Shown: one piece after another, positions 41,151 through 50,356 of the stretch
Position numbering within the stretch: the stretch's first letter is position 1
Layout of the letters: the number at the start of each line of letters is the position of its first letter
Sequence record: OR892555.1
Length of the DNA stretch: 64,000 nucleotides
Direction: 5' to 3' (one strand)
DNA from: Escherichia phage EP1
The notes under the pieces: generated by a model
Seen by the model: the letters and a program-made list of their open reading frames with translations, nothing else
Database searches by the model: none
What the model was told of the DNA's origin: nothing
Program-made: the position numbers and the translations under genes

Positions 41151-42767
41151 TTAACGTCTAAGCCCCTCATAAGGATTGCTTCTCACTAAATCAGTGTGAG
41201 TACCCATAGAAGGTGGCTTGAATAGTTTTACTTCGTTGAGACTGTTGAAAGCATCGCTTGTGGCATCCACTTGGTCATCCTTGGTTTTCCCATCTCCACA
41301 AAAACCTTCCAGTTCTTGGAAATAGGCTTCGTTCCAGCTACCTCTAACGATTTTTACCAATCCTGCTTCAGAAGCAGCAGAGAAACCCGCAAAACGGGTA
41401 ACTTTATCTTTATTGGTTGGTTTGGCTCTTGCACGATAACCTTTCTCGGAAAGTTTTCTGATAAGAGATGTTGCGTAGGATTTACCAGCAGCGCCTGGGT
41501 CTTGAGGAATAAAGATACCAGTACGTTTGCCGTCGCTTTCAGCGGTCAAGTTAATTTGTGTCTCGACTCCAGAAGGTCTATCTCTAAATCTTACTACGTT
41601 CATGACATAATAGCAACCATCTTTTTTAGATTTAGCCATTCTAACACCTGCTGTCCAGTCAGGGTTAGGGTTAACTTCAGAAGGTAAAGTAGCCGCTAAG
41701 TCCCATGCTCTCACGTCAAATACGTCAGGTGGAACTGAATCAACAATCTCACACCATTGTCTTTGCCAATAGTTAGAACCTTCTGCACGAGCTTTCCAGT
41801 TACCAAATCTCAAACGTGCAACGTTTACTGGAGTGTTGTTTTCCAGCTTACCACGATACTTCGGTTCCAAGAAGTCAAGAATTGGGTTATCATCAATCGT
41901 ACCAGAGATAAAGGTATACGTCTGAGGAATCTCCAGAGGGAACATTTCAAGAATCTTGTCTCTATCCCAATCAGATACCATCACACCATCATTCATCACA
42001 TACCAACGAATACGACCACATTTCTCAGGGTCTGGATAACCTTCTTCGTCTAAGAATGGTTCTACCCAATCATAAATGAAGTGGTCTCTGTCTGGGTTCA
42101 TGGAAATCTTCATGTAAGAGTCACCTTCAGCACCAGAACGCAAACGAGTTTGCAGGTATGAAATCTGTGACGCAGAGAAGTGTGTACCTTCGTCAAAGTA
42201 AATTGCTGAGTATTCAATACCCTGATGACCTTCAGCGTGTTTTTCAAGTTCTAAGTAGGTAAACTTGATAGTAGCCCCAGAAGGGAATACAATGGTCATC
42301 TTCTGTTCATGTGGAACACCACCGAACTTACCAAAAAGCTTCTTCGCAGCAGGCCATAAACCACCTTGTAACTGTGTCGTGTTTCGACGGAAGTATACAG
42401 CGTTGTAGTTAGGGTCTTCGATAAATCTGAGTGAATCCATCAGCAAAGCAGCAGTCTTACCAGCACCAGCCGCACCACCATATAGAACTAAGTCAGCATT
42501 TGTGTTAAGAAATACTTCCTGAGAGCCGGGTTGTGGAGCTACATAGTTCTTATCAGTCATAAGTTTAAAGATAAGTCTTACTTGGTCTGGAGTGTATCTT
42601 AATAAAGTCAGAATCTGAGTAGGAAGGAATTTAGAGGGGTCTTTACCAAATGACTTGATAATATCTTTAACTTCATCAGAAAGCCCCAACTCTCCAGCTA
42701 GGACTTTCCTTACATCTTCCACTCGCTTCTGCTTAACAGCATTCAAATCCATTAAGCGCCTCCGCAA
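41151..42767 (-). CDS. terminase large subunit
   Basis: Walker A LYGGAAGAGKTAA; C-terminal RNase H-like nuclease region; 538 aa. Confidence 0.85.
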   Translation of the reverse strand: MRRRLMDLNAVKQKRVEDVRKVLAGELGLSDEVKDIIKSFGKDPSKFLPTQILTLLRYTPDQVRLIFKLMTDKNYVAPQPGSQEVFLNTNADLVLYGGAAGAGKTAALLMDSLRFIEDPNYNAVYFRRNTTQLQGGLWPAAKKLFGKFGGVPHEQKMTIVFPSGATIKFTYLELEKHAEGHQGIEYSAIYFDEGTHFSASQISYLQTRLRSGAEGDSYMKISMNPDRDHFIYDWVEPFLDEEGYPDPEKCGRIRWYVMNDGVMVSDWDRDKILEMFPLEIPQTYTFISGTIDDNPILDFLEPKYRGKLENNTPVNVARLRFGNWKARAEGSNYWQRQWCEIVDSVPPDVFDVRAWDLAATLPSEVNPNPDWTAGVRMAKSKKDGCYYVMNVVRFRDRPSGVETQINLTAESDGKRTGIFIPQDPGAAGKSYATSLIRKLSEKGYRARAKPTNKDKVTRFAGFSAASEAGLVKIVRGSWNEAYFQELEGFCGDGKTKDDQVDATSDAFNSLNEVKLFKPPSMGTHTDLVRSNPYEGLRR

Positions 42768-42773
42768 ATAGAA

Positions 42774-42974
42774 TTATTCAGCAGCAACTTCTTCGGCAGC
42801 CTTAACACCAAACTTTGCATCAACTGCATCTAACAGTTCATCCATATTGGTTTCTTTAATGTCTTTGCCAGTTGCATTAGCCAGACGGTGAGCAACACTG
42901 ATAATAGTGTTCTGCAACAGTTCGGCTCTTTTGTTTGCTTCATAAAGTTCTTTGTAAACATTAGTCTCGTTCAT
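42774..42974 (-). CDS. hypothetical small protein upstream of terminase
   Basis: ORF track with start trimmed to MNETNVYKEL; helical. Confidence 0.3.
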   Translation of the reverse strand: MNETNVYKELYEANKRAELLQNTIISVAHRLANATGKDIKETNMDELLDAVDAKFGVKAAEEVAAE

Positions 42975-43195
42975 TGTATTTCTCCAAAATAATAAGTGAA
43001 TGGCTCTCCTGAAAAAAGACGGTGCAGAGACCGTCAAGGAGAAACCACAATGTATGCCAGAGACATACTGTATAAGTCTTCTTATAAAGTATACATCTGT
43101 AAAAAAGCCCTGTCTAAAAATACTCTTCGGTAGCGAAAGGAAGAATACTCGTAGCAGGGCGTTATTATTTTATTTTGAGAGAGAGTAAAATAATT

Positions 43196-43271
43196 TGGAG
43201 CGTCGAAAGGGAGTCGAACCCTCATAATCCTGTTTTGCAGACAGGTACATAGCCATTTCTGTCATCGACGC
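43196..43271 (-). tRNA. tRNA-Cys (anticodon GCA)
   Basis: Acceptor halves 43200-43206/43265-43271 pair; T-arm AAGGG-AGTCGAA-CCCTC (reverse-complement view); anticodon loop CUGCAAA; CCA encoded. Confidence 0.7.
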
Positions 43272-43277
43272 ATTAAT

Positions 43278-43369
43278 TGGAGGAAGATACCAGACTTGAA
43301 CTGGTACGCCGATTTCTCGGTTACTGACAGTTTAGCAAACTGTCCCCTTACCTTTAGGGTTAATCTTCC
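43278..43369 (-). tRNA. tRNA-Ser (anticodon GCU), long variable arm
   Basis: 92 nt; acceptor GGAAGAT/ATCTTCC; anticodon stem ACAGT/ACTGT with loop UUGCUAA. Confidence 0.7.
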
Positions 43370-43371
43370 AA

Positions 43372-44103
43372 TTATTTATTCAAGGCATCCTTCATTTCTG
43401 GAGTTGCAATTGAATCAATCACGCCAGATTTACAGGAATCATCAAACCAGTCTGGTAAGATACCTGCAAGGAAACCATTAATATTTGTTTTCAAGTAATC
43501 AGCAATCAAAGCCGCTTCATCTGCAATCATCTGAGCCACTTCATTAGCATAGGCAGTAATCTTTGCCATACCATCATTAATCGCTGTAACAGCTTGTGTA
43601 GCGAGGTCAGAGATGGTTGCTAGTCCTTTATCAATTGCATCCTGTAAGTCGCTTAGAACGCTGTTTACGGCATCTATAGAGGTATTAATCAAATCCATAG
43701 CCTTGTTACCGTATTCAGTAGCAACTCCCATGATTCCACTAAACGGTGTACAACCAACTTGTTCACCTGCTGCTCCCATAACATTAGAGTAACCTTTAGC
43801 TACTTGCATACGTTGTGAAAACTCATCTACAGACTTCTGTCCATATTGAGTCAGTGTGTTAGTTGTCGTTGTAGTGCTTCCAAGGCTAGTTGAGAAGCTA
43901 CTTAACAAGGCTGTAGTCAAACCAGCAGCAATAAGTTTATCTTTTACTGTAGGGTCTGATACCGAGCTAATAGAGCTTACTAATGAAGTAGAAGCGGCAA
44001 CTGTACCACCAAGAACTGCTGCACCAGTAATAAGAGGGTTAGAGAACCCGTTACCGGATTTAAGGAGACTGAAAATCTCTTTACCTTGTCCTGTCATCTC
44101 TTT
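43372..44103 (-). CDS. Ser/Thr/Ala-rich protein embedded in the tRNA array
   Basis: ORF trimmed to MKEMTGQ so it does not overlap the adjacent tRNA; low-complexity S/T-rich centre. Confidence 0.4.
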   Translation of the reverse strand, partial: KEMTGQGKEIFSLLKSGNGFSNPLITGAAVLGGTVAASTSLVSSISSVSDPTVKDKLIAAGLTTALLSSFSTSLGSTTTTTNTLTQYGQKSVDEFSQRMQVAKGYSNVMGAAGEQVGCTPFSGIMGVATEYGNKAMDLINTSIDAVNSVLSDLQDAIDKGLATISDLATQAVTAINDGMAKITAYANEVAQMIADEAALIADYLKTNINGFLAGILPDWFDDSCKSGVIDSIATPEMKDALNK

Positions 44104-44122
44104 CATTATGCACCTATAAAAT

Positions 44123-44199
44123 TGGTAGCCCATCGGGATTTGAACCCTGTTCTCATGTTTTTCAGACACGCGCTTTAACCATATAAGCTAATTGAGCTA
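44123..44199 (-). tRNA. tRNA, tentative Phe (anticodon GAA), atypical T-stem and acceptor/D-arm linker
   Basis: T-loop ATTTGAA with 3-bp GGG/CCC stem; anticodon loop CUGAAAA; acceptor TAGCTCA/TGGGCTA pairs with one G-U. Confidence 0.45.
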
Positions 44200-44206
44200 T
44201 TAAAAT

Positions 44207-44283
44207 TGGGGTGACCTACGGGAATCGAACCCGTATAGACCATGTTCACAGCATGGGTCATTATCCATTTATGATAAGGCCAC
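44207..44283 (-). tRNA. tRNA-His (anticodon GUG)
   Basis: T-arm ACGGG-AATCGAA-CCCGT; anticodon stem CCATG/CATGG with loop CUGUGAA; D-stem TCAT/ATGA. Confidence 0.7.
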
Positions 44284-44314
44284 ATGTAAGGACTCTCGTA
44301 AGAACCCTTAGAGG

Positions 44315-44390
44315 TGGCAGCAGCGTAAGGATTTGAACCTTAATCTTTCAGCTTCAGAGGCTGGAGCATTGCCAGTTATGCTACACTGCT
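44315..44390 (-). tRNA. tRNA-Gln (anticodon CUG)
   Basis: T-arm TAAGG-ATTTGAA-CCTTA; anticodon loop CUCUGAA; D-stem GCAT/ATGC. Confidence 0.65.
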
Positions 44391-44397
44391 ATTAATT

Positions 44398-44468
44398 TGG
44401 TACTCCATATCGGATTCGAACCGATACATAACACAGATTTTAAGTCTGGCCTCTCTGCCAATTGGAGT
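44398..44468 (-). tRNA. tRNA-like gene, anticodon loop reads UAA (Leu-type) but D-arm appears truncated
   Basis: Perfect T-arm ATCGG-ATTCGAA-CCGAT and 6-bp acceptor; only about 10 nt available for the D-arm. Confidence 0.4.
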
Positions 44469-44478
44469 AATGGAGCAT

Positions 44479-44554
44479 TGGCGGGGGATGTTGGAATTGA
44501 ACCAACTTCTTCGATTTCAAAGACCGAGGTTTTAACCTTGTAAACTAATCCCCT
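44479..44554 (-). tRNA. tRNA-Gln (anticodon UUG)
   Basis: T-arm GTTGG-AATTGAA-CCAAC; anticodon loop CUUUGAA; D-stem GTTT/AAAC. Confidence 0.6.
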
Positions 44555-44562
44555 TTAAATCT

Positions 44563-45120
44563 TTACTTTCTTAGTGGATGAATAAAGAATGCCAACATAA
44601 TTCTTTCCCTTGAGAATGCTCTTTCTTCTGGGACAACACTTTTAAGTTTCCATCCAACATAAATTCTCCAGTAAAACTGTTTACCAAAGACTTTAATTGA
44701 TGGGATAAAAGCGAATAATCCCCAAGCATTCCTATTCCACATCAGGAGATAACCTGTCTGATTATCTTCAGGGTTAGAACTTACGTTGATATTACCTTTC
44801 CACTTAGTAACATCTTTTACATCTCTTCCTAATACATGGTAAGAGAAGTTATAAGCTTTGTTTCTCCAGAGCCACCCAACTCTCTGCATATAAACACCAA
44901 GCTTACCAATCTTTCTAATCTTAGCCCATCGCTCAACGTGACCTTTGTCACCGTCAATTGGGTTATCATAAGTTTCCATCCATCTGAATCCAAAAGGTAG
45001 ATGGCCTTTCTTCTCACTGTAGAATGGAACAACAAAAGGTGCTAAGATTACTGCTAAGATTGCTGCAAATGGCTCTAGCAAAGCTAGGAAAATCCATGAA
45101 GCATACTTCAAATATCTCAT
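44563..45120 (-). CDS. membrane protein embedded in the tRNA array
   Basis: ORF trimmed to MRYLKYAS to avoid tRNA overlap; N-terminal TM segment ASWIFLALLEPFAAILAVILAPFVV. Confidence 0.4.
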   Translation of the reverse strand: MRYLKYASWIFLALLEPFAAILAVILAPFVVPFYSEKKGHLPFGFRWMETYDNPIDGDKGHVERWAKIRKIGKLGVYMQRVGWLWRNKAYNFSYHVLGRDVKDVTKWKGNINVSSNPEDNQTGYLLMWNRNAWGLFAFIPSIKVFGKQFYWRIYVGWKLKSVVPEERAFSRERIMLAFFIHPLRK

Positions 45121-45140
45121 TTTAAATAGCCTCTTTAAAT

Positions 45141-45216
45141 TGGTGCAGAATAAGGGATTCGAACCCCTATTAACAGCTTCGTAGACTGTTGCTCTATCCA
45201 TTTGAACTAATCCTGC
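45141..45216 (-). tRNA. tRNA-Arg (anticodon ACG)
   Basis: T-arm AAGGG-ATTCGAA-CCCCT; anticodon loop CUACGAA. Confidence 0.6.
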
Positions 45217-45330
45217 TTCCCTACGAGAACACCATACAGTTTTTCACAAACTTTGTTTTTACGTCTGTTTAGGTATGACGCTCTAAACTTTTTTGCGATG
45301 GAGTTATTGCTCATAGTGCTCTCCTCAAAT

Positions 45331-45408
45331 TGGTGTTCCAAGACGGATTCGAACCGTCACTAATACAAGGTTTGAGCTTGCATCCTCTGCCAATTGGGAT
45401 ACTGGAAC
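45331..45408 (-). tRNA. tRNA with anticodon CAA (Leu-type) but short variable region
   Basis: Well-formed cloverleaf in reverse complement (acceptor GTTCCAG/TTGGAAC, D-loop AATTGGCAG, T-loop TTCGAAT); anticodon loop CUCAAAC; 78 nt. Confidence 0.55.
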
Positions 45409-45410
45409 AT

Positions 45411-45485
45411 TGGTACTCGCTGAAGGAATTGAACCTTCTTTACCAACTTGTAAGGATGGGGCTTTACCGTATAAACTAAGCGAGT
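45411..45485 (-). tRNA. tRNA-Val (anticodon UAC)
   Basis: Acceptor ACTCGCT/AGCGAGT perfect; T-arm GAAGG-AATTGAA-CCTTC; anticodon loop CUUACAA. Confidence 0.65.
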
Positions 45486-45490
45486 ATGAA

Positions 45491-45578
45491 AAGAGGTCTG
45501 AAGTTGTGCCGCTAACTCAACTCCGTGGAATTTGTTACGGTCTTCAGTTGACTCAAGCGGTCTTTCACTCGACCTCTG
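45491..45578. ncRNA. structured element with acceptor-like terminal stem but no T-loop (candidate small RNA or degenerate tRNA)
   Basis: AGAGGTC (45492-45498) pairs with GACCTCT (45571-45577); internal hairpin CTGAAG...CTTCAG; fills a tRNA-sized gap in the array. Confidence 0.3.
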
Positions 45579-45581
45579 AAA

Positions 45582-45658
45582 TGGTGCTGCTCACAGGACT
45601 CGAACCTGCATTTCCATCCTTACAAGGGATGTGTAATAGCCAATTATACGAAAGCAGC
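45582..45658 (-). tRNA. tRNA-Thr (anticodon UGU)
   Basis: T-arm ACAGG-ACTCGAA-CCTGC; anticodon stem CATCC/GGATG with loop CUUGUAA. Confidence 0.7.
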
Positions 45659-45664
45659 ATTGTT

Positions 45665-45739
45665 TGGAGCATCCAGAGGGAATCGAACCCTCAACCTCAG
45701 TTTGGAAGACTGTAATTTTCCCGTTTAAACTATGGATGC
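45665..45739 (-). tRNA. tRNA-Gly (anticodon UCC)
   Basis: Acceptor GCATCCA/TGGATGC perfect; T-arm GAGGG-AATCGAA-CCCTC; anticodon loop CUUCCAA. Confidence 0.65.
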
Positions 45740-45745
45740 ACTAAT

Positions 45746-45821
45746 TGGTGGAGAAGCAGGGAATTGAACCCTGTACTTAAGTTTGCAAAACTTATGTTTT
45801 AACCATGTAAACTACATCCCC
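45746..45821 (-). tRNA. tRNA-Ala (anticodon UGC)
   Basis: T-arm CAGGG-AATTGAA-CCCTG; anticodon stem TAAGT/ACTTA with loop UUUGCAA. Confidence 0.65.
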
Positions 45822-45827
45822 AATGTT

Positions 45828-45903
45828 TGGTACAGGTGGAGGGAATTGAACCCATCATCTTACTGATTAAGAGTCAGCCGCATAACCATTTTGCTACACC
45901 TGC
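45828..45903 (-). tRNA. tRNA-Lys (anticodon CUU), tentative
   Basis: T-loop AATTGAA with GGG/CCC stem; anticodon loop CUCUUAA; acceptor ACAGGTG/CACCTGC. Confidence 0.55.
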
Positions 45904-45910
45904 ATTAATT

Positions 45911-45988
45911 TGGTAGGAGACAAGGGATTCGAACCCTCAAACACCAACTTCTAAGGATGGTAGGTTTACCAATTACCGTCAATCTCCC
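45911..45988 (-). tRNA. tRNA with anticodon UAG (Leu-type) but short variable region, structure partly unresolved
   Basis: T-arm AAGGG-ATTCGAA-CCCTC; acceptor with two G-U pairs; anticodon loop CUUAGAA; D-loop AATTGGTAA. Confidence 0.45.
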
Positions 45989-46052
45989 ATTAAATCTTTG
46001 TAGAGAACTGCTAAGACGCCAAAGCAACAATGGTATCAAATGCCTTAACAAT

Positions 46053-46080
46053 TCTCTAAAAAGACCTAACTGGTCTTTGC
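46053..46080 (-). terminator. hairpin, possible minus-strand terminator inside the tRNA array (weak)
   Basis: AAAGACC-taact-GGTCTTT stem followed by short U-run on the minus strand. Confidence 0.3.
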
Positions 46081-46229
46081 ATAGTCTTGTTTAATCCGGT
46101 GACTATAACCTTTGGAGAGCTTGATATTATCTCTTCTCCGTGACACCTACTAGGTGCTTTGTTGTGCGTGTACGACAATACACGAGGGAAACCGAACGCT
46201 GTACCAGAGCGTGGGCTTAAATCTCATTA

Positions 46230-46319
46230 GGCGGTAGATAAAGGAGTCGAACCCTCACCGTATCACTACAATGGCAATTGTTTTCAAGACAATTTGGCTT
46301 CCATTAGCCGCTATCTACC
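46230..46319 (-). tRNA. tRNA-Ser (anticodon UGA), long variable arm
   Basis: Acceptor GGTAGAT/ATCTACC; anticodon stem ATTGT/ACAAT with loop CUUGAAA; about 87 nt. Confidence 0.65.
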
Positions 46320-46332
46320 CCTAATAAGACTG

Positions 46333-46737
46333 TTAAACCTCTAACAGTCCTGCATGAACTTTCCTATGACAGTTAGAACACAGTACAACACATTTTCTAA
46401 CTTCTCTCTTAATAGTCCCTCTAGAGTAAGTCTTTAAATTGCTAGGTTCAAAGTCTTTTTCATTTGGGTCTAAATGGTGGAAGTCTAATGCTACTGGTTC
46501 AGATTCACCACAAACTCTGCATTTGCAGATTCTTTTGTATCGGTTAAGAAACTCTCTGTTTCTTTTTCTGTCAGCTACCGCCCTAATTTTCCTTTTAGCT
46601 TTATAAGTTGGGTCTTCTTGATACTTCTTAGAAGAGTATTTGGATTTGCAATCTTTGCATACTGACTGGTATCCATTACCACGCTTATGAAAACAACTTA
46701 AAGGTTTTTCTTGTGAGCATTTTCTACAAAGTTTCAT
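46333..46737 (-). CDS. HNH homing endonuclease inserted in the tRNA array
   Basis: Cys-rich zinc-binding N-terminus; HNH core DFHHLDPNEK ... CSNCHRKVH. Confidence 0.65.
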   Translation of the reverse strand: MKLCRKCSQEKPLSCFHKRGNGYQSVCKDCKSKYSSKKYQEDPTYKAKRKIRAVADRKRNREFLNRYKRICKCRVCGESEPVALDFHHLDPNEKDFEPSNLKTYSRGTIKREVRKCVVLCSNCHRKVHAGLLEV

Positions 46738-46751
46738 ACAAGTACCTATTC

Positions 46752-46822
46752 TGGCAGGGGTGTAGAGATTCGAACTCTAATCAAGAATTTTGGAGACTCT
46801 ATTGCTGCCTTAGCTCACCCCT
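46752..46822 (-). tRNA. tRNA-Trp (anticodon CCA), tentative
   Basis: Acceptor AGGGGTG/CACCCCT perfect; T-arm TAGAG-ATTCGAA-CTCTA; anticodon loop CUCCAAA; short D-arm. Confidence 0.6.
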
Positions 46823-46993
46823 ATTAACACTATAATTCGAAGCTTACCGTATTGTCACAACACTGTCAAGCCTCTTCTCAGATTATTTACATGTTCTGGA
46901 AAACATGAGATACAGACCACCTCCTTATGAAGTTGACTCATCTGAATCAACACGGAGACCCGCTAAGGTCGTCTAAGTAATCTGCTAACTAAT

Positions 46994-47070
46994 TGGCACA
47001 CCCTACAGGGCTCGAACCTGTAACTCAGTGCTTAGAAGGCACTTGCTCTATCCAATTGAACTAAGGGTGC
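46994..47070 (-). tRNA. tRNA-Arg (anticodon UCU)
   Basis: T-arm ACAGG-GCTCGAA-CCTGT; anticodon stem AGTGC/GCACT with loop CUUCUAA. Confidence 0.7.
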
Positions 47071-47320
47071 ATTCTTATCTTTAAAGGCTCTCTTAGAAAA
47101 CCCTTAAAGATGCCCACCTTATTAATCATACCGTGGGCGAGTACGCCAAATTCTTTGATGAGGGGTTGGAAGACCTCACTGGTGTTTAGCCTATTAAGCT
47201 ACTGCCAGAAAAACATTATCGTTTGCATTTATTTTAGTTTGCAAAAATAGACGCTACGCTAACGAAAACTAAGGTTACTATAAAGTGGTCACATCTGAAT
47301 GTCAACAACTTTATCGAATT

Positions 47321-47396
47321 TGGTAGTGGTAGCAGGAATCGAACCTGCGATGTTCGGTTATCAGCCGAGTGTTATGACCGTCTTAACTATACCACC
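47321..47396 (-). tRNA. tRNA-Ile (anticodon GAU)
   Basis: T-arm GCAGG-AATCGAA-CCTGC; anticodon loop CUGAUAA. Confidence 0.6.
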
Positions 47397-47398
47397 AT

Positions 47399-47475
47399 TG
47401 GAGGTTCAGATGGGATTCGAACCCACATTCATAGGGCTTATGAAACCCTTGCATTACCTTATCTGCGACTGAACC
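47399..47475 (-). tRNA. tRNA-Met (anticodon CAU), G-C-rich anticodon stem
   Basis: Acceptor GGTTCAG/CTGAACC perfect; T-arm ATGGG-ATTCGAA-CCCAC; anticodon stem AGGGC/ACCCT with loop UUCAUAA. Confidence 0.65.
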
Positions 47476-47554
47476 ATAATAAGTTGCCCTTTGGAGAAGA
47501 ACTATTGAGTGGGTGTTTCCAGCCGCGCAGGTGTTCTTCAGTTAAGGGCGAATT
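47476..47554. ncRNA. structured element with acceptor-like terminal stem but no T-loop (candidate small RNA)
   Basis: TTGCCCT (about 47484-47490) pairs with AGGGCGA (about 47544-47550); shares a TTCAGTT motif with the element at 45491. Confidence 0.25.
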
Positions 47555-47630
47555 TGGTAGGAGTGGAGGGATTCGAACCCGTCGCCTGTCAGATTAAAAG
47601 TCTGCCGCATCACCATTCTGCTACACTCCC
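47555..47630 (-). tRNA. tRNA-Lys (anticodon UUU)
   Basis: T-loop ATTCGAA with GGG/CCC stem; anticodon stem TCAGA/TCTGC with loop CUUUUAA. Confidence 0.65.
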
Positions 47631-47775
47631 ATTAAATCATCTTTGCAGTAACCTACGCAAACCTTGCTAAAGGGTTTGTAGAGTCATTTCCTATTAAGCT
47701 AATCTAGAATCATGCTAAGGAAATTCATCGGCACTCATGGGACGACATTTAGCTCCATAAGCCACTGCAAAGAGG

Positions 47776-47907
47776 ATTACCAGACCGTTGTTTTATCTTA
47801 AGTGCTCCCATTACACCAACACGCCGTAACGTGTGAAGGAATCGAACCTTCGCCTTTTCTTTACCAGAGAAATAGATTGTTTAATACTTGCTGTAAACGG
47901 TCTTCTG
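47776..47907 (-). ncRNA. tRNA-like RNA lacking a canonical acceptor stem, enclosed by a long-range stem (candidate Y-RNA-like or pseudo-tRNA)
   Basis: Minus strand reads AGACCGTT...[anticodon-like arm TTTCT-CTGGTAA-AGAAA][T-arm GAAGG-TTCGATT-CCTTC][hairpin ACACG-TTACGG-CGTGT]...AACGGTCT; ends pair over 8 bp. Confidence 0.4.
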
Positions 47908-47919
47908 TAAATTTGTTGA

Positions 47920-47993
47920 GCCAGACCAAGTTTTAAATTATTCAAATTAATTGGCTTGAAATTTTTAAGTTGGCTTGCTGAATTTGGTCTTCT
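47920..47993 (-). repeat. hairpin spacer module, copy B1 (CAGAAGACCAA ... TTGGTCTGG)
   Basis: AGACCAA (47922-47928) complementary to TTGGTCT (47983-47989); conserved flanks shared with copies at 47779, 48388, 48544. Confidence 0.5.
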
Positions 47994-48055
47994 GCTCCTT
48001 TAAAGAATACTCGTAAGAACTCTTTAAGGGATGGGCTAAAAAGCCCTCTCAAATT

Positions 48056-48133
48056 TGGCGGTTACGAAGGGATTCGAACCCTCATCATCTCCCGTGACAG
48101 GGGAGTATTTTAACCAGATTAAACTACATAACC
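48056..48133 (-). tRNA. tRNA-Asp (anticodon GUC)
   Basis: T-arm AAGGG-ATTCGAA-CCCTC; anticodon stem CTCCC/GGGAG with loop CUGUCAC. Confidence 0.7.
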
Positions 48134-48139
48134 TTTGTT

Positions 48140-48227
48140 TGGTGCGCCGTGAAGGAGTCGAACCTACCGAGTCATAATGACAAGTGATTTACAGTCACCA
48201 CCGCTTCCATCTACGGGATAACGACGC
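48140..48227 (-). tRNA. tRNA-Tyr (anticodon GUA), long variable arm
   Basis: 88 nt; T-arm GAAGG-AGTCGAA-CCTAC; anticodon loop CUGUAAA. Confidence 0.65.
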
Positions 48228-48297
48228 ATTTTATTCTATTCAGGCTAAGGACTTGCACCTTACAAATCGGTGAGCATTACGCTTCTCTCCCAAATCT

Positions 48298-48374
48298 TGG
48301 CGGTGAGTTAGGGATTCGAACCCTATACCATTCGGTTAACAGCCGACCGCACATGCCTTATGTGCTTCCTCACC
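48298..48374 (-). tRNA. tRNA-Asn (anticodon GUU)
   Basis: T-arm TAGGG-ATTCGAA-CCCTA; anticodon loop CUGUUAA. Confidence 0.7.
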
Positions 48375-48387
48375 ATGTTTAGTATTG

Positions 48388-48449
48388 CCAGACCGTATCT
48401 TTTCATTTTTTCCTATAAAAATTTTGAGATTGCTGTAAACGGTCTTCTG
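48388..48449 (-). repeat. hairpin spacer module, copy A2 (CAGAAGACCGT ... ACGGTCTGG)
   Basis: AGACCGT (48390-48396) complementary to ACGGTCT (48439-48445); lies between tRNA-Asn and the CAU tRNA. Confidence 0.5.
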
Positions 48450-48455
48450 CAAATT

Positions 48456-48532
48456 TGGAGGCGGGTGTTGGAGTCGAACCAACCGTTACCATGCTAATGA
48501 GACATGTGAGACACCCTTTCTCTATACCCGCG
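48456..48532 (-). tRNA. tRNA with anticodon CAU (Met, fMet or Ile-lysidine type)
   Basis: T-arm GTTGG-AGTCGAA-CCAAC; D-stem GAGA/TCTC; anticodon loop CUCAUUA; position 1-72 mismatched. Confidence 0.6.
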
Positions 48533-48543
48533 ATTCTTAATGA

Positions 48544-48607
48544 CCAGACCAAGTTTTATTTTCTATAAGCGAAGAAAGTTTTTTAACTTGCTGAATTTGG
48601 TCTTCTG
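48544..48607 (-). repeat. hairpin spacer module, copy B2 (CAGAAGACCAA ... TTGGTCTGG)
   Basis: AGACCAA (48546-48552) complementary to TTGGTCT (48597-48603). Confidence 0.5.
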
Positions 48608-48614
48608 TCAAATT

Positions 48615-48689
48615 TGGAGTCGTAGACGGGATTCGAACCCGCGAGCAACTGATTGAAGGTCAGGTGGCTAACCATTTGCCTTCTACGAC
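48615..48689 (-). tRNA. tRNA-Glu (anticodon UUC), tentative (C at position 33)
   Basis: Acceptor GTCGTAG/CTACGAC perfect; T-arm ACGGG-ATTCGAA-CCCGC; anticodon loop CCUUCAA. Confidence 0.55.
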
Positions 48690-48696
48690 ATTAATT

Positions 48697-48773
48697 TGGT
48701 CTCCGTTGAGGGAGTTGAACCCTCGACCCCTTGCTCCCAAAGCAAGTGCTCTGCCAAACTGAGCTAAACGGAA
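48697..48773 (-). tRNA. tRNA-Pro (anticodon UGG)
   Basis: T-arm GAGGG-AGTTGAA-CCCTC; anticodon stem CTTGC/GCAAG with loop UUUGGGA. Confidence 0.7.
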
Positions 48774-48940
48774 ATAATTCTTTTCAAACTCTATGTAACC
48801 ACTTTAACATTATTTTTTAGTGGTTGTCAAGAACTTTTTTAAAATATTTTTCAGTATCTTAGAAAAACTCTCGATTTCGTTTTTATGTAGAACATATTAA
48901 AGGGTATCAAACAATTTGTCAATACCCTTTTTAAAACTTT

Positions 48941-50356
48941 TTACCAGATGTAACGGTCAATCATTACTGCTTTGAGCATTACGCTGATTGGGTCAAACTT
49001 CTCACCACCAAGCAGAGCCTTTAAAGTGGCTGGAGAGAAACCTGATACCATCGCTACTCCGTTATCATTTACGGATACTTCGCAGTGACCATTACGGTTT
49101 GCTAAGTACCAGAATACCAGTTGTGGCATCTCATATCCAGCTTTTTCATACTTACTACGAATTACTTCGAAGTTTGTACGACCATTTGCCCCGTCAACCT
49201 GATTAAACTCCATATCAGAGAAGATAATAAGCTTACTTGGCATTGCTGCCTGAGTCAAGTTATTTCTTACACCAATTTCAAGAATACGGTCAAATGCTGC
49301 TTGTAGGTTTGTAGAACCATACTCAACATGACTCATAATCTGACGATGACGATTCTGTAAAGTGCCACTCAGGGTGATAAAGTGAGGTCTGTCTGAGTAA
49401 ATCATTAACTCGTCTTTAAAACAACCTGTATTGCGTTCTGAGACGTATAACGCCAGAGACACACCAATATCAAGAGCGGTTACTGAACCAAATGTTTCCC
49501 AAGTCATAGAGCATGATACATCTGTCATACAAAGGATGTTTTCACCATCAGCCATCCAGTTTGGTAGTGCTTTCCACTGTTCATTAGCAACTTGTGCTTT
49601 ACCACGCTGAACAGATTTAAGAACATCATAAGGGTATACAGCACCAGCATTAATCTTCGTCTCGCCCTTAGATAGAGCTTCAACGTAAGCTGCATAACGT
49701 TCACCATCTTTCTTACTGAACAGTTTTTGATAACGTGCAGCAGCCAGTGAAGGAATCTTACTGTAGTCAATCTCGCCAAAGTTATTTGTAGAGATTTTCT
49801 GTTCAACGGTGTCAGATAAAGCTGACAGCAGTGTACGGTACTCTTTCTCACTCAAGTTTGCAAATTTACAGAAACGTTTTACAAACTGCTTGTGGCGTGG
49901 TTTTACTCGTGGTAACCACTTAGCTGCTAAACATGCTGTATCAGGGTCTAACAAAGCTTCTTCTAAATGCTTGAAAGCATCTGTCTCATAACGAGTACCT
50001 ACGAAGATTTTGAAGTCATCGAAACGACCTAATTCAGAAATCTTATCCATGATACGAAGAACTTGGAAAGAATCCAGAATGTTATCTTCGATTGCTTGTA
50101 AGAGGACAGTTCGGAAAGCTTTACGCTCACCCATACCTTCTCGTACATCTCGCATATGCAGTAAAATACGAACTGCTACATCAACATCCTCACGCAAAGC
50201 TTTGTAGAACAAGTCTGGGAGAATCTCTACATTGTTACGGCTTGAACCAGCAGCTTTGTAGAAGTCTACCAAGGCAGACATTGATGATGTATGGTTAACA
50301 GCACCATTTTCAGTTCGCCCTGCATTGAGGTGCGAATGCTTAAATAAATCGCTCAT
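48941..50356 (-). CDS. Ro60-like protein: helical TROVE-like N-terminal region plus C-terminal vWA domain with MIDAS motif
   Basis: C-terminal MTDVSCSMTWE (DxSxS) ... GSTNLQAAF ... LVFWYLANRNGHCEVSVNDNGVAMVSGFS parallels the Ro60 vWA domain; 471 aa; directly upstream of the tRNA array on the same strand. Confidence 0.6.
   Translation of the reverse strand: MSDLFKHSHLNAGRTENGAVNHTSSMSALVDFYKAAGSSRNNVEILPDLFYKALREDVDVAVRILLHMRDVREGMGERKAFRTVLLQAIEDNILDSFQVLRIMDKISELGRFDDFKIFVGTRYETDAFKHLEEALLDPDTACLAAKWLPRVKPRHKQFVKRFCKFANLSEKEYRTLLSALSDTVEQKISTNNFGEIDYSKIPSLAAARYQKLFSKKDGERYAAYVEALSKGETKINAGAVYPYDVLKSVQRGKAQVANEQWKALPNWMADGENILCMTDVSCSMTWETFGSVTALDIGVSLALYVSERNTGCFKDELMIYSDRPHFITLSGTLQNRHRQIMSHVEYGSTNLQAAFDRILEIGVRNNLTQAAMPSKLIIFSDMEFNQVDGANGRTNFEVIRSKYEKAGYEMPQLVFWYLANRNGHCEVSVNDNGVAMVSGFSPATLKALLGGEKFDPISVMLKAVMIDRYIW

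What the first reader, a model, noticed from the sequence alone, without database searches (positions are those of the whole stretch)
45486..45581. tRNA-sized elements with acceptor-like terminal stems but no T-loop
Between tRNA-Val and tRNA-Thr an 86-nt segment has perfectly complementary 7-nt ends (AGAGGTC / GACCTCT) and an internal hairpin (CTGAAG...CTTCAG), yet lacks a GTTCGAAT-type T-loop. A similar unit lies at 47476-47554 (TTGCCCT / AGGGCGA ends, shared TTCAGTT motif), and a related motif occurs at about 46930-46990. By analogy with T4, whose tRNA region encodes stable non-tRNA small RNAs, these may be additional small RNAs; they are also candidate Ro60 ligands.
Basis: partly seen in the sequence, partly recalled or inferred. 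Interest (0 to 1): 0.6.

Follow-up and report, generated by a model that had tools for sequence, protein, structure and literature searches.

The report
Two non-tRNA RNAs in phage tRNA operon
Two tRNA-sized gaps in this phage's tRNA gene cluster hold conserved, rod-shaped structured RNAs that are not tRNAs and match no catalogued RNA family; their function is unknown, and they do not look like partners of the phage's Ro60-like protein, for which a separate set of better candidates lies nearby.

Summary
The window is a Felixounavirus/Suspvirus-type coliphage whose tRNA cluster lies on the minus strand. Both elements are real.

E1 (45489-45577, minus strand) has a 7-bp closing stem, folds better than shuffles (z -3.7), and is as conserved as the tRNAs in 259 phage records. 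Two pairs show compensatory changes. A 27-nt core is invariant even in the distant TH18/Av-05 phages.

E2 (47482-47551, minus strand) is unrelated to E1. It is a three-helix hairpin with strong covariation (11 of 18 pairs changed on both sides; 0 of 500 shuffles reach this). It occurs as a present/absent cassette between tRNAs in Ounavirinae, Vequintavirinae, Stephanstirmvirinae and N4-like phages. In one subfamily its basal stem is followed by (N)CCA.

The third site (46930-46990) is not supported. Neither element matches Rfam, T4 rnaC/rnaD, E. coli genomes or 185,579 prokaryotic genomes.

The "small RNA" reading is supported by conservation and structure only; expression was not tested. The Ro60-ligand reading is not supported. 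The phage does encode a structural Ro60 homologue (48941-50356), but phage TH18 carries E1 and E2 with no Ro-like gene. Four other units (47777-48610) share a conserved bulged stem, one of them with YrlA-like architecture, and are better candidates.

The parts
45489..45577 (-). E1: 89-nt rod-shaped structured RNA between tRNA-Thr and tRNA-Val
   Evidence: MFE z = -3.7. Model R2 scores 116.7 bits here and 88-116 bits in relatives. 94.6% identity across about 25 related loci, in the range of the tRNAs. 96% of cells paired.
45571..45577 (-). E1 P1 5' strand (AGAGGUC); pairs with 45492-45498 (GACCUCU)
   Evidence: The G-C at position 4 becomes U-A in the TH18/Av-05 lineage, with a G.U intermediate in L055.
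45492..45498 (-). E1 P1 3' strand
45557..45560 (-). E1 P2 5' strand (CCGC); pairs with 45509-45512 (GCGG)
   Evidence: G-C changes to A-U in L050/L051, with a G.U intermediate in L074.
45526..45552 (-). E1 invariant 27-nt core GUCAACUGAAGACCGUAACAAAUUCCA. It covers the P3 5' strand, the GAAGA bulge, P4 (CCGU/ACGG) and the 10-nt apical loop AACAAAUUCC (45527-45536).
   Evidence: Identical in the Felixounavirus and TH18/Av-05 lineages, although the whole element is only 81% identical between them.
47482..47551 (-). E2: roughly 70-nt three-helix hairpin RNA between tRNA-Lys(UUU) and tRNA-Met, present only in a subset of related phages
   Evidence: MFE z = -5.1. Model R1 scores 87.6 bits. Covariation. 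Precise 78-85-nt presence/absence polymorphism against a 4-6-nt spacer.
47544..47549 (-). E2 P1 5' strand (GCCCUU); pairs with 47486-47491 (AAGGGC). This is the acceptor-like basal stem.
   Evidence: It covaries: GCCCCU/AGGGGC, GCCUCU/AGAGGC, GCUCCC/GGGAGC, ACCCCA/UGGGGU. It is followed by (N)CCA in ABPH49, P778, KE23, SP058, MY01 and IME11, but not in the window.
47533..47539 (-). E2 P2 5' strand (GAAGAAC); pairs with 47496-47502 (GUUCUUC)
   Evidence: 6 of 7 pairs show changes on both sides.
47506..47529 (-). E2 P3 hairpin UGCGCGG-C-UG[GAAA]CA-C-CCACUCA, with conserved C.U, C.A and C.C mismatches and a GNRA loop
   Evidence: Nearly invariant across subfamilies. The register is supported by U-A to A-U, G-C to U-A, C.U to C-G, G-C to A-U, C.A to U.G, and G[GAAA]C to C[GUAA]G.
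45582..45658 (-). tRNA-Thr(UGU), immediately upstream of E1 in the transcript
45411..45485 (-). tRNA-Val(UAC), 6 nt downstream of E1. Cleavage by RNase P at its 5' end would define the E1 3' trailer.
   Evidence: The processing step is inferred.
47555..47630 (-). tRNA-Lys(UUU), upstream of E2
47399..47475 (-). tRNA-Met, downstream of E2

Best explanation
E1 and E2 are two unrelated, phage-specific families of structured non-coding RNA. Each sits in a 'tRNA slot' of the phage tRNA operon, on the tRNA strand, 4-10 nt from its neighbouring tRNAs.

Inferred mechanism: they are co-transcribed with the tRNAs from the cluster's sigma-70-like promoters. They are released by the host tRNA-maturation machinery: RNase P at the 5' end of the next tRNA, and probably at E2's own acceptor-like stem; RNase E and 3' exonucleases behind the preceding tRNA. 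They then persist as roughly 70-90-nt rod-shaped RNAs because both ends are locked in a closing helix.

The parts most likely to do the work are those conserved in sequence. For E1 this is the invariant 27-nt apical segment. For E2 it is the base of P3 with its fixed C.U and C.A mismatches. These would bind a conserved enterobacterial factor (protein or RNA) in trans.

The elements act independently of the phage's Ro60-like protein. E2 behaves as an exchangeable cassette, like a tRNA gene. In one subfamily it carries a tRNA-like U(-1)/G(+1) ... (N)CCA end.

Shown: existence, strand, conservation, secondary structure, distribution, and independence from the Ro-like gene. Inferred: transcription, processing, stability, and a trans-acting role.
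For: Always the same strand as the tRNAs and the same spacing from them, in every phage examined.

E1 is 94.6% identical across relatives, against 80-88% for ordinary spacers. Its 27-nt core is invariant in a lineage that is otherwise 81% identical.

E1 pairing: 96% of cells paired, two compensatory pairs each with a G.U intermediate, and slid controls at 29-48%.

E2 pairing: 93% of cells paired, 11 of 18 pairs changed on both sides, 0 of 500 shuffles reaching this, and slid controls at 36-57%.

G.U pairs outnumber A.C pairs on the tRNA-sense strand (E1 34 vs 3; E2 10 vs 5). This points to RNA-level selection on that strand.

E2 is found in Ounavirinae, Vequintavirinae, Stephanstirmvirinae and three genera of Schitoviridae. 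It is a clean presence/absence cassette.

Promoter-like sites lie on the minus strand upstream of both transcription units.

Precedent: T4 rnaC/rnaD in the same genomic context accumulate as stable RNAs of still unknown function (PMC9697503).
Against: There are no expression or end-mapping data.

E1 covariation is thin: 2 pairs. The shuffle control for 'pairs with a change on both sides' is reached in 56 of 500 shuffles, so E1's fold rests mainly on thermodynamics and on sequence conservation.

No target or partner was identified. No complementarity stands out within the phage, and there is no E. coli match at blastn sensitivity.

E2 is dispensable: most Felixounaviruses, including the window's closest relative phiSUSP1, lack it.

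The window's copies have no CCA, and the window's E2 has C rather than U at position -1.
Confidence: 0.55

Rival explanations
1. E1 and/or E2 are Y-RNA-like ligands of the phage Ro60-like protein encoded at 48941-50356.
For: The protein is a structural Ro60 homologue: its top 12 Foldseek PDB hits are all Ro60/TROVE, full length, E about 1e-8. Both elements lie within 4 kb downstream on the same strand, which is the criterion of Chen et al. 2014. The window's E1 5' strand, GGUCGAGUG, recalls the metazoan GGUCCGAGUG (my recollection of hY3, not tested).
Against: No Y_RNA or YrlA model hit at E<=1. Most E1 copies read GGUCAAGUG and TH18 reads GUCAAUG, so the Ro-contact-like motif is not conserved. 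Neither element has T or D arms. The complete TH18 genome has E1 and E2 but no Ro-like gene (7 tblastn queries plus a profile search) and no Y-like unit. The Ro-like-positive phages P778, L048 and L049 lack E1. E2 occurs in N4-like phages; only about 6 kb around E2 was examined there, so the absence of Ro in those genomes is not proven. Four better candidates lie next to the gene.
Confidence: 0.07
2. They are cis-acting processing or insulator hairpins. In this reading they are structured spacers that help the polycistronic precursor fold or position RNase P/E, with no function after release.
For: They sit exactly between tRNAs. Their closing stems would isolate neighbouring tRNA folds. Loss of E2 is tolerated. 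Other tRNA-sized hairpin spacers occur in related clusters, for example after E2 in SP058 and ABPH49.
Against: Most tRNA pairs in the same cluster are separated by only 2-9 nt and need no such spacer. An insulator would need structure, not sequence. Yet E1's 27-nt loop and bulge segment and E2's P3, including its mismatches, are sequence-invariant across phage subfamilies while the stems drift. E2 keeps the same sequence between quite different tRNA pairs: Lys/Met, Gly/Glu, Met/Ile, Ser/Asn, Arg/Cys, Tyr/Ser.
Confidence: 0.2
3. They are decayed tRNA pseudogenes.
For: They have tRNA size, tRNA position, and a 6-7-bp terminal stem. Some related records annotate 'tRNA-Pseudo' features in the cluster.
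Against: No tRNA call from ARAGORN or Rfam, even at E<=1. The conserved and covarying fold is an unbranched rod, not a cloverleaf. Conservation equals that of functional tRNAs. E2 is 88-92% identical between different phage subfamilies.
Confidence: 0.03
4. They are DNA-level elements: a palindromic mobile cassette, a recombination or homing site, or a transcription terminator.
For: E2 is a clean insertion/deletion polymorphism with inverted-repeat ends. HNH endonuclease genes are scattered through these clusters. E1 is followed by UUUU in Felixounaviruses.
Against: G.U pairs exceed A.C pairs on the sense strand, and there are many compensatory changes. This fits RNA pairing rather than DNA palindromes. 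No terminator was called at either element. TH18's E1 has no U tract. No target-site duplication is evident. There is one copy per genome and none in bacterial genomes.
Confidence: 0.05

Closest known systems
Phage T4 species 1 and species 2 RNAs (rnaC, rnaD)
   Same: Non-tRNA small RNA genes in the phage tRNA gene cluster, on the tRNA strand and adjacent to tRNA genes. They are stable RNAs whose function is still unknown (PMC9697503).
   Different: No sequence or structure homology: models R1 and R2 find nothing in the T4 region. T4 rnaC carries a canonical T arm (CCGGGUUCGAAUCCCGG) and is 139 nt long. E1 and E2 are unbranched rods of 70-90 nt without a T loop.
Bacterial Y RNAs (YrlA RF02553, YrlB) bound by Ro60/Rsr
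   Same: Encoded within 4 kb of, and on the same strand as, a Ro60-type gene. The 5' and 3' ends pair into a stem.
   Different: No model match, no GNCGAA(N)G motif, and no tRNA-like T/AS/D module. Both elements are present in a phage without any Ro-like gene. The Y-RNA description fits units U1-U4 at 47777-48610 instead.
Hairpin-type RNase P substrates and tRNA acceptor minihelices (for example the 4.5S RNA precursor, from general knowledge)
   Same: E2 is a long hairpin whose basal 6-7-bp helix is preceded by U and starts with G. In one subfamily it is followed by A/N-CCA. These are the known determinants for E. coli RNase P, and minihelices are known substrates for CCA-adding enzymes.
   Different: Cleavage and CCA addition are untested. 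The window's own copy lacks CCA and has C at -1. An internal loop separates P1 from P2, so there is no continuous 12-bp acceptor/T-like stack.
tRNA-operon spacer-derived sRNAs of E. coli (for example 3'ETS-leuZ, from general knowledge)
   Same: Small RNAs released as by-products of tRNA precursor processing that then act in trans.
   Different: Those are short, largely unstructured, Hfq-dependent sponges. E1 and E2 are tightly folded, with no obvious Hfq-type U tail or seed.

Membership tests
tRNA (RF00005) | Cloverleaf with D, anticodon and T arms; GTTCRANYC-type T loop | tested here: not met
   ARAGORN and the Rfam tRNA model give no call at either element, even at E<=1. The conserved fold is an unbranched rod.
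tRNA (RF00005) | 7-bp acceptor stem followed by discriminator plus CCA (encoded in 23 of 24 tRNAs of this cluster) | tested here: inconclusive
   E1 has a 7-bp stem but no CCA in any lineage. E2 has a 6-bp stem and no CCA in the window, but 7 bp plus (N)CCA in 6 of 17 distinct homologues.
Y RNA / YrlA (RF00019, RF02553) | Match to the family covariance model | tested here: not met
   No hit at E<=1 over 42500-49500. The only YrlA hit (21.5 bits) lies on the tRNA-Phe/His pair.
Y RNA / YrlA (RF00019, RF02553) | Encoded near (<4 kb) and on the same strand as a Ro60 orthologue | tested here: met
   The Ro60 fold of ORF 48941-50356 is shown by AlphaFold plus Foldseek. E2 lies 1.4 kb and E1 3.4 kb downstream on the same strand. 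The whole tRNA cluster meets this criterion too, so it discriminates poorly.
Y RNA / YrlA (RF00019, RF02553) | Co-occurrence with a Ro60 gene across genomes | tested here: not met
   TH18 has E1 and E2 but no Ro-like gene. P778, L048 and L049 have a Ro-like gene but no E1.
Y RNA / YrlA (RF00019, RF02553) | Conserved Ro-contact motif (GNCGAAN0-1G / GGUCCGA) in the terminal stem, and a tRNA-like T/AS/D module (YrlA) | tested here: not met
   No motif match in E1 or E2. E1's GGUCGAG is GGUCAAG in most relatives and GUCAAUG in TH18. There are no T or D arms.
Y RNA / YrlA (RF00019, RF02553) | Physical binding to Ro60 | not testable with these tools
   Needs RIP, CLIP or EMSA.
T4 rnaC/rnaD-type stable RNAs of phage tRNA clusters | Non-tRNA RNA gene inside the tRNA operon, on the tRNA strand | tested here: met
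T4 rnaC/rnaD-type stable RNAs of phage tRNA clusters | Sequence or structure homology to rnaC or rnaD | tested here: not met
   No R1 or R2 hits in T4 68500-74500. The folds differ.
T4 rnaC/rnaD-type stable RNAs of phage tRNA clusters | Accumulation as a discrete stable RNA during infection | not testable with these tools
   Needs a Northern blot or small-RNA-seq.
Intrinsic terminator | Short GC-rich hairpin immediately followed by a U tract, conserved | tested here: not met
   No terminator-like call at either element. The U tract after E1 is absent in TH18.

The most novel reading that the evidence does not exclude
E2 is a horizontally traded tRNA-end mimic. In this reading it is a hairpin matured by RNase P, and in part of the family it ends in CCA. 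Virulent enterobacterial phages of at least four lineages would carry it in their tRNA arrays to sponge or decoy a host factor that recognises tRNA acceptor ends, for example a tRNA-directed defence toxin or nuclease. The invariant mismatch-studded base of P3 would be the specific bait. E1 would be a second, lineage-restricted decoy or regulator acting through its invariant 27-nt loop. Together with the Y-RNA-like array, this would make phage tRNA clusters general 'structured-RNA islands' rather than codon-supply devices only.
Probability: 0.12. Interest if true: 0.8.

Novelty: new variant of a known kind. Interest (0 to 1): 0.55.

Why it matters
Phage tRNA clusters are usually read as codon-usage or anti-defence tRNA supplies, and their tRNA-sized gaps are ignored or annotated as small ORFs. 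This work shows that two such gaps hold RNA families under clear structural and sequence selection. One of them (E2) is exchanged between unrelated phage groups like a tRNA gene.

This extends the 50-year-old, still unexplained T4 rnaC/rnaD observation to many enterobacterial phages. It also supplies covariance models, defined helices and invariant segments that make the question experimentally tractable.

Separating these RNAs from the Ro60-like system, and pointing to the true Y-RNA-like candidates, also gives a concrete entry point for studying the widespread phage DUF2828 'RNA-binding protein'.

Tried and rejected
- Hammerhead reading of E2's CUGANGA...GAAAC: rejected. CUGAAGA lies inside the covarying P2 helix, no stem II can be drawn, and there is no Rfam ribozyme hit.
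- CRISPR-repeat or anti-CRISPR mimic (E2 GAAACACCC against enterobacterial I-E repeats, from memory): only about 11 nt of resemblance and no repeat hairpin. Not pursued.
- ToxI-like antitoxin mimic (E1 AAAUUC): a 6-nt resemblance only.
- 23S H69 mimicry by the E1 tip (CCGUAAC): a post-hoc 7-mer, not significant.
- Antisense target search. The E1 loop complement is not enriched in the window. There is no E. coli match for either element at E<=1; short seeds cannot be excluded.
- The E1 21-mer also hit six unrelated metagenome contigs. There it is the reverse complement of codons for the amidotransferase motif G-I-C-Y-G-L-Q, judged a chance match to a very abundant motif.
- E1 as a relative of the Y-like units through the shared GAAGACCGU 9-mer: rejected. 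R3 does not hit E1 meaningfully (17.9 bits, E 0.33, spanning tRNA-Thr). E1 lacks their bulged basal helix. TH18 keeps the E1 core without any such unit.
- E1-DUF7338 linkage: the two are syntenic in Felixounavirus and TH18, but the Mooglevirus-type loci have E1 without DUF7338.
- Two literature searches were wasted on unspecific terms. No paper contains either core sequence.
- IMG/VR scans added few lineages.

Full report
**Context.** The 3.1 kb around the finding is 96% identical to Escherichia phage phiSUSP1 and 85-98% identical to hundreds of Felixounavirus-type phages. ARAGORN finds 24 tRNA genes at 43196-48773, all on the minus strand. Rfam adds a tRNA at 48618-48689 and several weak calls. 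The relevant strand for the finding is therefore the minus strand.

**Observation.** E1 lies between tRNA-Thr and tRNA-Val. On the tRNA strand it reads UUUC-AGAGGUC...GACCUCU-UUUCAU.
- It folds at -31.4 kcal/mol, z = -3.7.
- No tRNA finder and no Rfam family hits it at E<=1.
- E2, between tRNA-Lys and tRNA-Met, folds at -23.9 kcal/mol, z = -5.1, also with no Rfam hit.
- The third site (46930-46990) folds no better than shuffles (z = -0.75). It lies in the least conserved kind of spacer (83% identity) and is hit by neither covariance model. I do not count it as an element.

**E1, comparative evidence.**
- blastn finds E1 in 259 phage records. It is 95-100% identical in the Ounavirinae, while the surrounding region is typically 85-90% identical.
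- Measured over about 25 related loci, E1 is 94.6% identical. That is inside the range of the tRNAs (74-99.8%) and above ordinary spacers at 80-88%.
- A second lineage, the rV5-like TH18/Av-05 group, carries an 81%-identical copy after its tRNA-Gly. A metagenome scan added further variants.
- In a model-based alignment of 21 distinct sequences, the fold P1-P2-P3-P4 is 96% paired, against 29-48% when the partners are slid. Two pairs show compensatory changes, each with a G.U intermediate: G-C to U-A in P1 and G-C to A-U in P2.
- Covariation is limited because the sequence barely varies. A 27-nt segment (45552-45526) is invariant in every copy, including TH18. It covers the P3 5' strand, a GAAGA bulge, P4 and the 10-nt loop AACAAAUUCC.
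- G.U pairs outnumber A.C pairs 34 to 3 on the tRNA-sense strand. This fixes the functional strand.
It shows no compensation and loses pairs in TH18 and other variants.

**E2, comparative evidence.** E2 is a separate family; models R1 and R2 never cross-hit. It occurs in:
- a minority of Ounavirinae;
- the TH18 group;
- Mydovirus, Seunavirus and other Vequintavirinae;
- a Stephanstirmvirinae phage;
- Yersinia phage P778;
- three genera of N4-like Schitoviridae.

In every case it lies between two tRNAs on their strand, but between different tRNA pairs.

On 17 distinct sequences, the three-helix structure is 93% paired. Eleven of 18 pairs changed on both sides, no shuffle in 500 reaches any measure, and slid controls give 36-57% paired.

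P1 and P2 drift freely, with compensation. The base of P3 (UGCGCG.../...CACUCA), with its C.U and C.A mismatches, is almost invariant, and the rare changes are isosteric or compensatory. The tip is a GNRA loop: G[GAAA]C, or C[GUAA]G in TH18. N4-likes of the SP058/MY01 type have a shorter UUAG/UUAU hairpin instead.

In most Felixounaviruses, tRNA-Lys and tRNA-Met are separated by only 4-6 nt. In a subset, exactly 78-85 nt of E2 is present. The window has it; its closest relative phiSUSP1 does not. E2 is therefore an exchangeable, dispensable cassette.

In six of 17 distinct homologues, the basal stem is U|GCC...GGC-A followed by CCA or NCCA. That is the format RNase P and CCA-adding enzymes recognise (general knowledge; cleavage untested). 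The window copy lacks CCA, whereas 23 of 24 of its tRNAs encode it.

**Not host-derived, not T4-like.** Neither element matches any complete E. coli genome. Neither conserved core occurs in 185,579 representative bacterial and archaeal genomes. The T4 tRNA region with rnaC and rnaD gives no hit with either model. T4 rnaC has a canonical T arm that E1 and E2 lack. T4 RNAC and RNAD are still described as RNAs of unknown function (PMC9697503). No paper in the library contains the E1 or E2 core sequence.

**The Ro60 question.** The 471-aa ORF at 48941-50356 (minus strand) is DUF2828 plus DUF7788, PHROG 'RNA-binding protein'.
- It has no sequence match to PDB chains.
- An AlphaFold model (pLDDT 88.6) retrieves Ro60/TROVE structures as its 12 best Foldseek hits, over the full length. 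They include the Thermus phage phiLo Ro60.
- The phage therefore does encode a Ro60-type protein, and homologues occur in 709 phage records.

E1 and E2 nonetheless fail the Y-RNA tests other than proximity to the gene (no model hit, no conserved GNCGAA motif, no T or D arms; see the membership table). Three distribution results argue against the link:
- The complete TH18 genome contains E1 and E2 but no Ro-like gene, by tblastn with seven diverse queries and by a profile search. It also has no Y-like unit.
- The Ro-like-positive phages P778, L048 and L049 lack E1.
- E2 occurs in N4-like phages.

**What fits Y RNA instead.** Between the Ro-like gene and E2, four units on the same strand share a 5' CAGAAGACC-N5-CAGCAA and a 3' (ACGG|UUGG)UCUGG. 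The 5' motif (searched as GAAGACC-N5-CA) has 6 matches in the whole 64-kb window against 0.42 expected, and 4 of them lie in the 47892-48605 stretch.
- Each folds into the same basal bulged helix, N4-[AGA]-AGACCNN / NNGGUCU-[G]-N4. The outer 4 bp differ compensatorily between the paralogues.
- The fourth unit (47910-47777) encloses a V arm, a canonical T arm, a capped acceptor-like stem and a D arm, in the V-T-AS-D order described for YrlA (PMC4201824).
- The capped stem covaries completely among relatives: ACACG/CGUGU, ACUCGAC/GUCGAGU, ACCCUUC/GAAGGGU.
- A model of it finds homologues beside Ro-like genes in a metagenomic Ounavirinae-like contig and, in tandem pairs, in Klebsiella phage phi1_175008 and a related IMG/VR contig. 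It finds none in TH18, Mydo, the N4-likes or T4.
- Rfam's YrlA model does not detect it, and Rfam calls part of it a weak tRNA. It is therefore at best a divergent relative.

These units, not E1 or E2, are the plausible ligands of the Ro-like protein.

**Mechanism and rivals.**
- Best-supported reading: E1 and E2 are stand-alone structured RNAs released from the tRNA precursor by tRNA-processing enzymes. They act through their sequence-invariant segments on a conserved host factor.
- A purely cis-acting spacer or insulator role is the main rival. It does not explain sequence invariance of loops and mismatches, nor E2's identical sequence between different tRNA neighbours.
- The pseudogene, DNA-element and terminator readings are contradicted by the covariation, the G.U bias and the scans.
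- The specific partner and the biological role remain unknown. Transcription, processing and stability are inferred, not shown.

**Verdict.** The 'extra small RNAs' interpretation is supported as far as sequence analysis can go. The relatedness of the two units and the Ro60-ligand idea are not supported. E2 in particular is a well-supported RNA family absent from Rfam 15 and from the searched literature, and it is shared across phage subfamilies.

Noticed in passing
window 48941-50356 (-): The 471-aa DUF2828/DUF7788 'RNA-binding protein' directly upstream of the tRNA cluster is a structural Ro60/TROVE plus vWA homologue. The AlphaFold model has pLDDT 88.6, and its top 12 PDB hits are all Ro60, although it has no sequence-level PDB match. 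Homologues occur in 709 phage records (Listeria, Mycobacterium, Vibrio, Campylobacter and other phages).
   Followed up: yes
window 48610-48541, 48452-48385, 47997-47918 (-): Three short (about 70-80 nt) paralogous units share the bulged basal helix N4-AGA-AGACCNN/NNGGUCU-G-N4 and the box CAGCAA. Their outer 4 bp covary between copies. They are candidate YrlB-like Y RNAs for the Ro-like protein.
   Followed up: partly
window 47910-47777 (-): A 135-nt unit has the same basal helix and encloses a V arm, a T arm (GAAGGUUCGAUUCCUUC), a capped acceptor-like stem that fully covaries among relatives, and a D arm. This is the YrlA-like V-T-AS-D order. Rfam calls part of it a weak tRNA (47827-47890, 30.6 bits), and the YrlA model misses it.
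   Followed up: yes
L047 1083-1347; L029 6640-6904; L049 12952-13089: Homologues of the YrlA-like unit (44-68 bits with model R3) sit next to Ro-like genes in Klebsiella phage phi1_175008 (a tandem pair), a related IMG/VR contig (a tandem pair), and a metagenomic Ounavirinae-like contig. All helices carry compensatory changes.
   Followed up: partly
window 48618-48689 (-), 48145-48225 (-), 46755-46822 (-): ARAGORN missed three tRNA-like genes. One is a good Rfam tRNA (53.7 bits), at the position where relatives annotate tRNA-Glu. A weak hit (22.8 bits) lies where relatives have tRNA-Tyr. A 32.6-bit hit sits next to the HNH gene, where typing phage 15 annotates tRNA-Trp.
   Followed up: no
window 46333-46737 (-): An HNH endonuclease ORF (PHROG 2255) is inserted in the tRNA cluster. 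Only about 3 of about 20 related loci align here, so it is a variable insertion.
   Followed up: no
window 47071-47320 (-): This 250-nt spacer is 93.5% conserved among relatives. It contains the best sigma-70-like site of the region (47305-47277, 11 of 12 matches) and a sub-threshold Rfam 'tmRNA_permuted' hit (47194-47379, 38.7 bits against a gathering score of 47) that overlaps tRNA-Ile.
   Followed up: no
L053, L060, L064, L068, L070, L072: The 21-nt E1 core CTGAAGACCGTAACAAATTCC also occurs in six unrelated metagenome contigs. There it is the reverse complement of codons for the amidotransferase motif G-I-C-Y-G-L-Q. I judged it a chance match, but an antisense relationship to such an mRNA was not excluded.
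   Followed up: partly
window 44563-45201 (-); L001 4347-4904: A DUF7338 protein gene lies 0.25-0.7 kb downstream of E1 in Felixounaviruses and also in TH18 (78% amino-acid identity). This suggests a shared block Gly-(Thr)-E1-...-DUF7338. The Mooglevirus-type loci have E1 without it.
   Followed up: partly
L033 3070-3139; L036 3074-3145: In Salmonella phage SP058 and phage ABPH49, E2 is followed by another tRNA-sized spacer with complementary ends (for example UAGAGUGU...ACACUCUA). Further uncharacterised hairpin elements may therefore exist in phage tRNA arrays.
   Followed up: no
L077 26889-28133; L075 8641-9675: Phage TH18, which carries E1 and E2 but no Ro-like gene, encodes its own CCA tRNA nucleotidyltransferase and an RNA ligase 2.
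   Followed up: no
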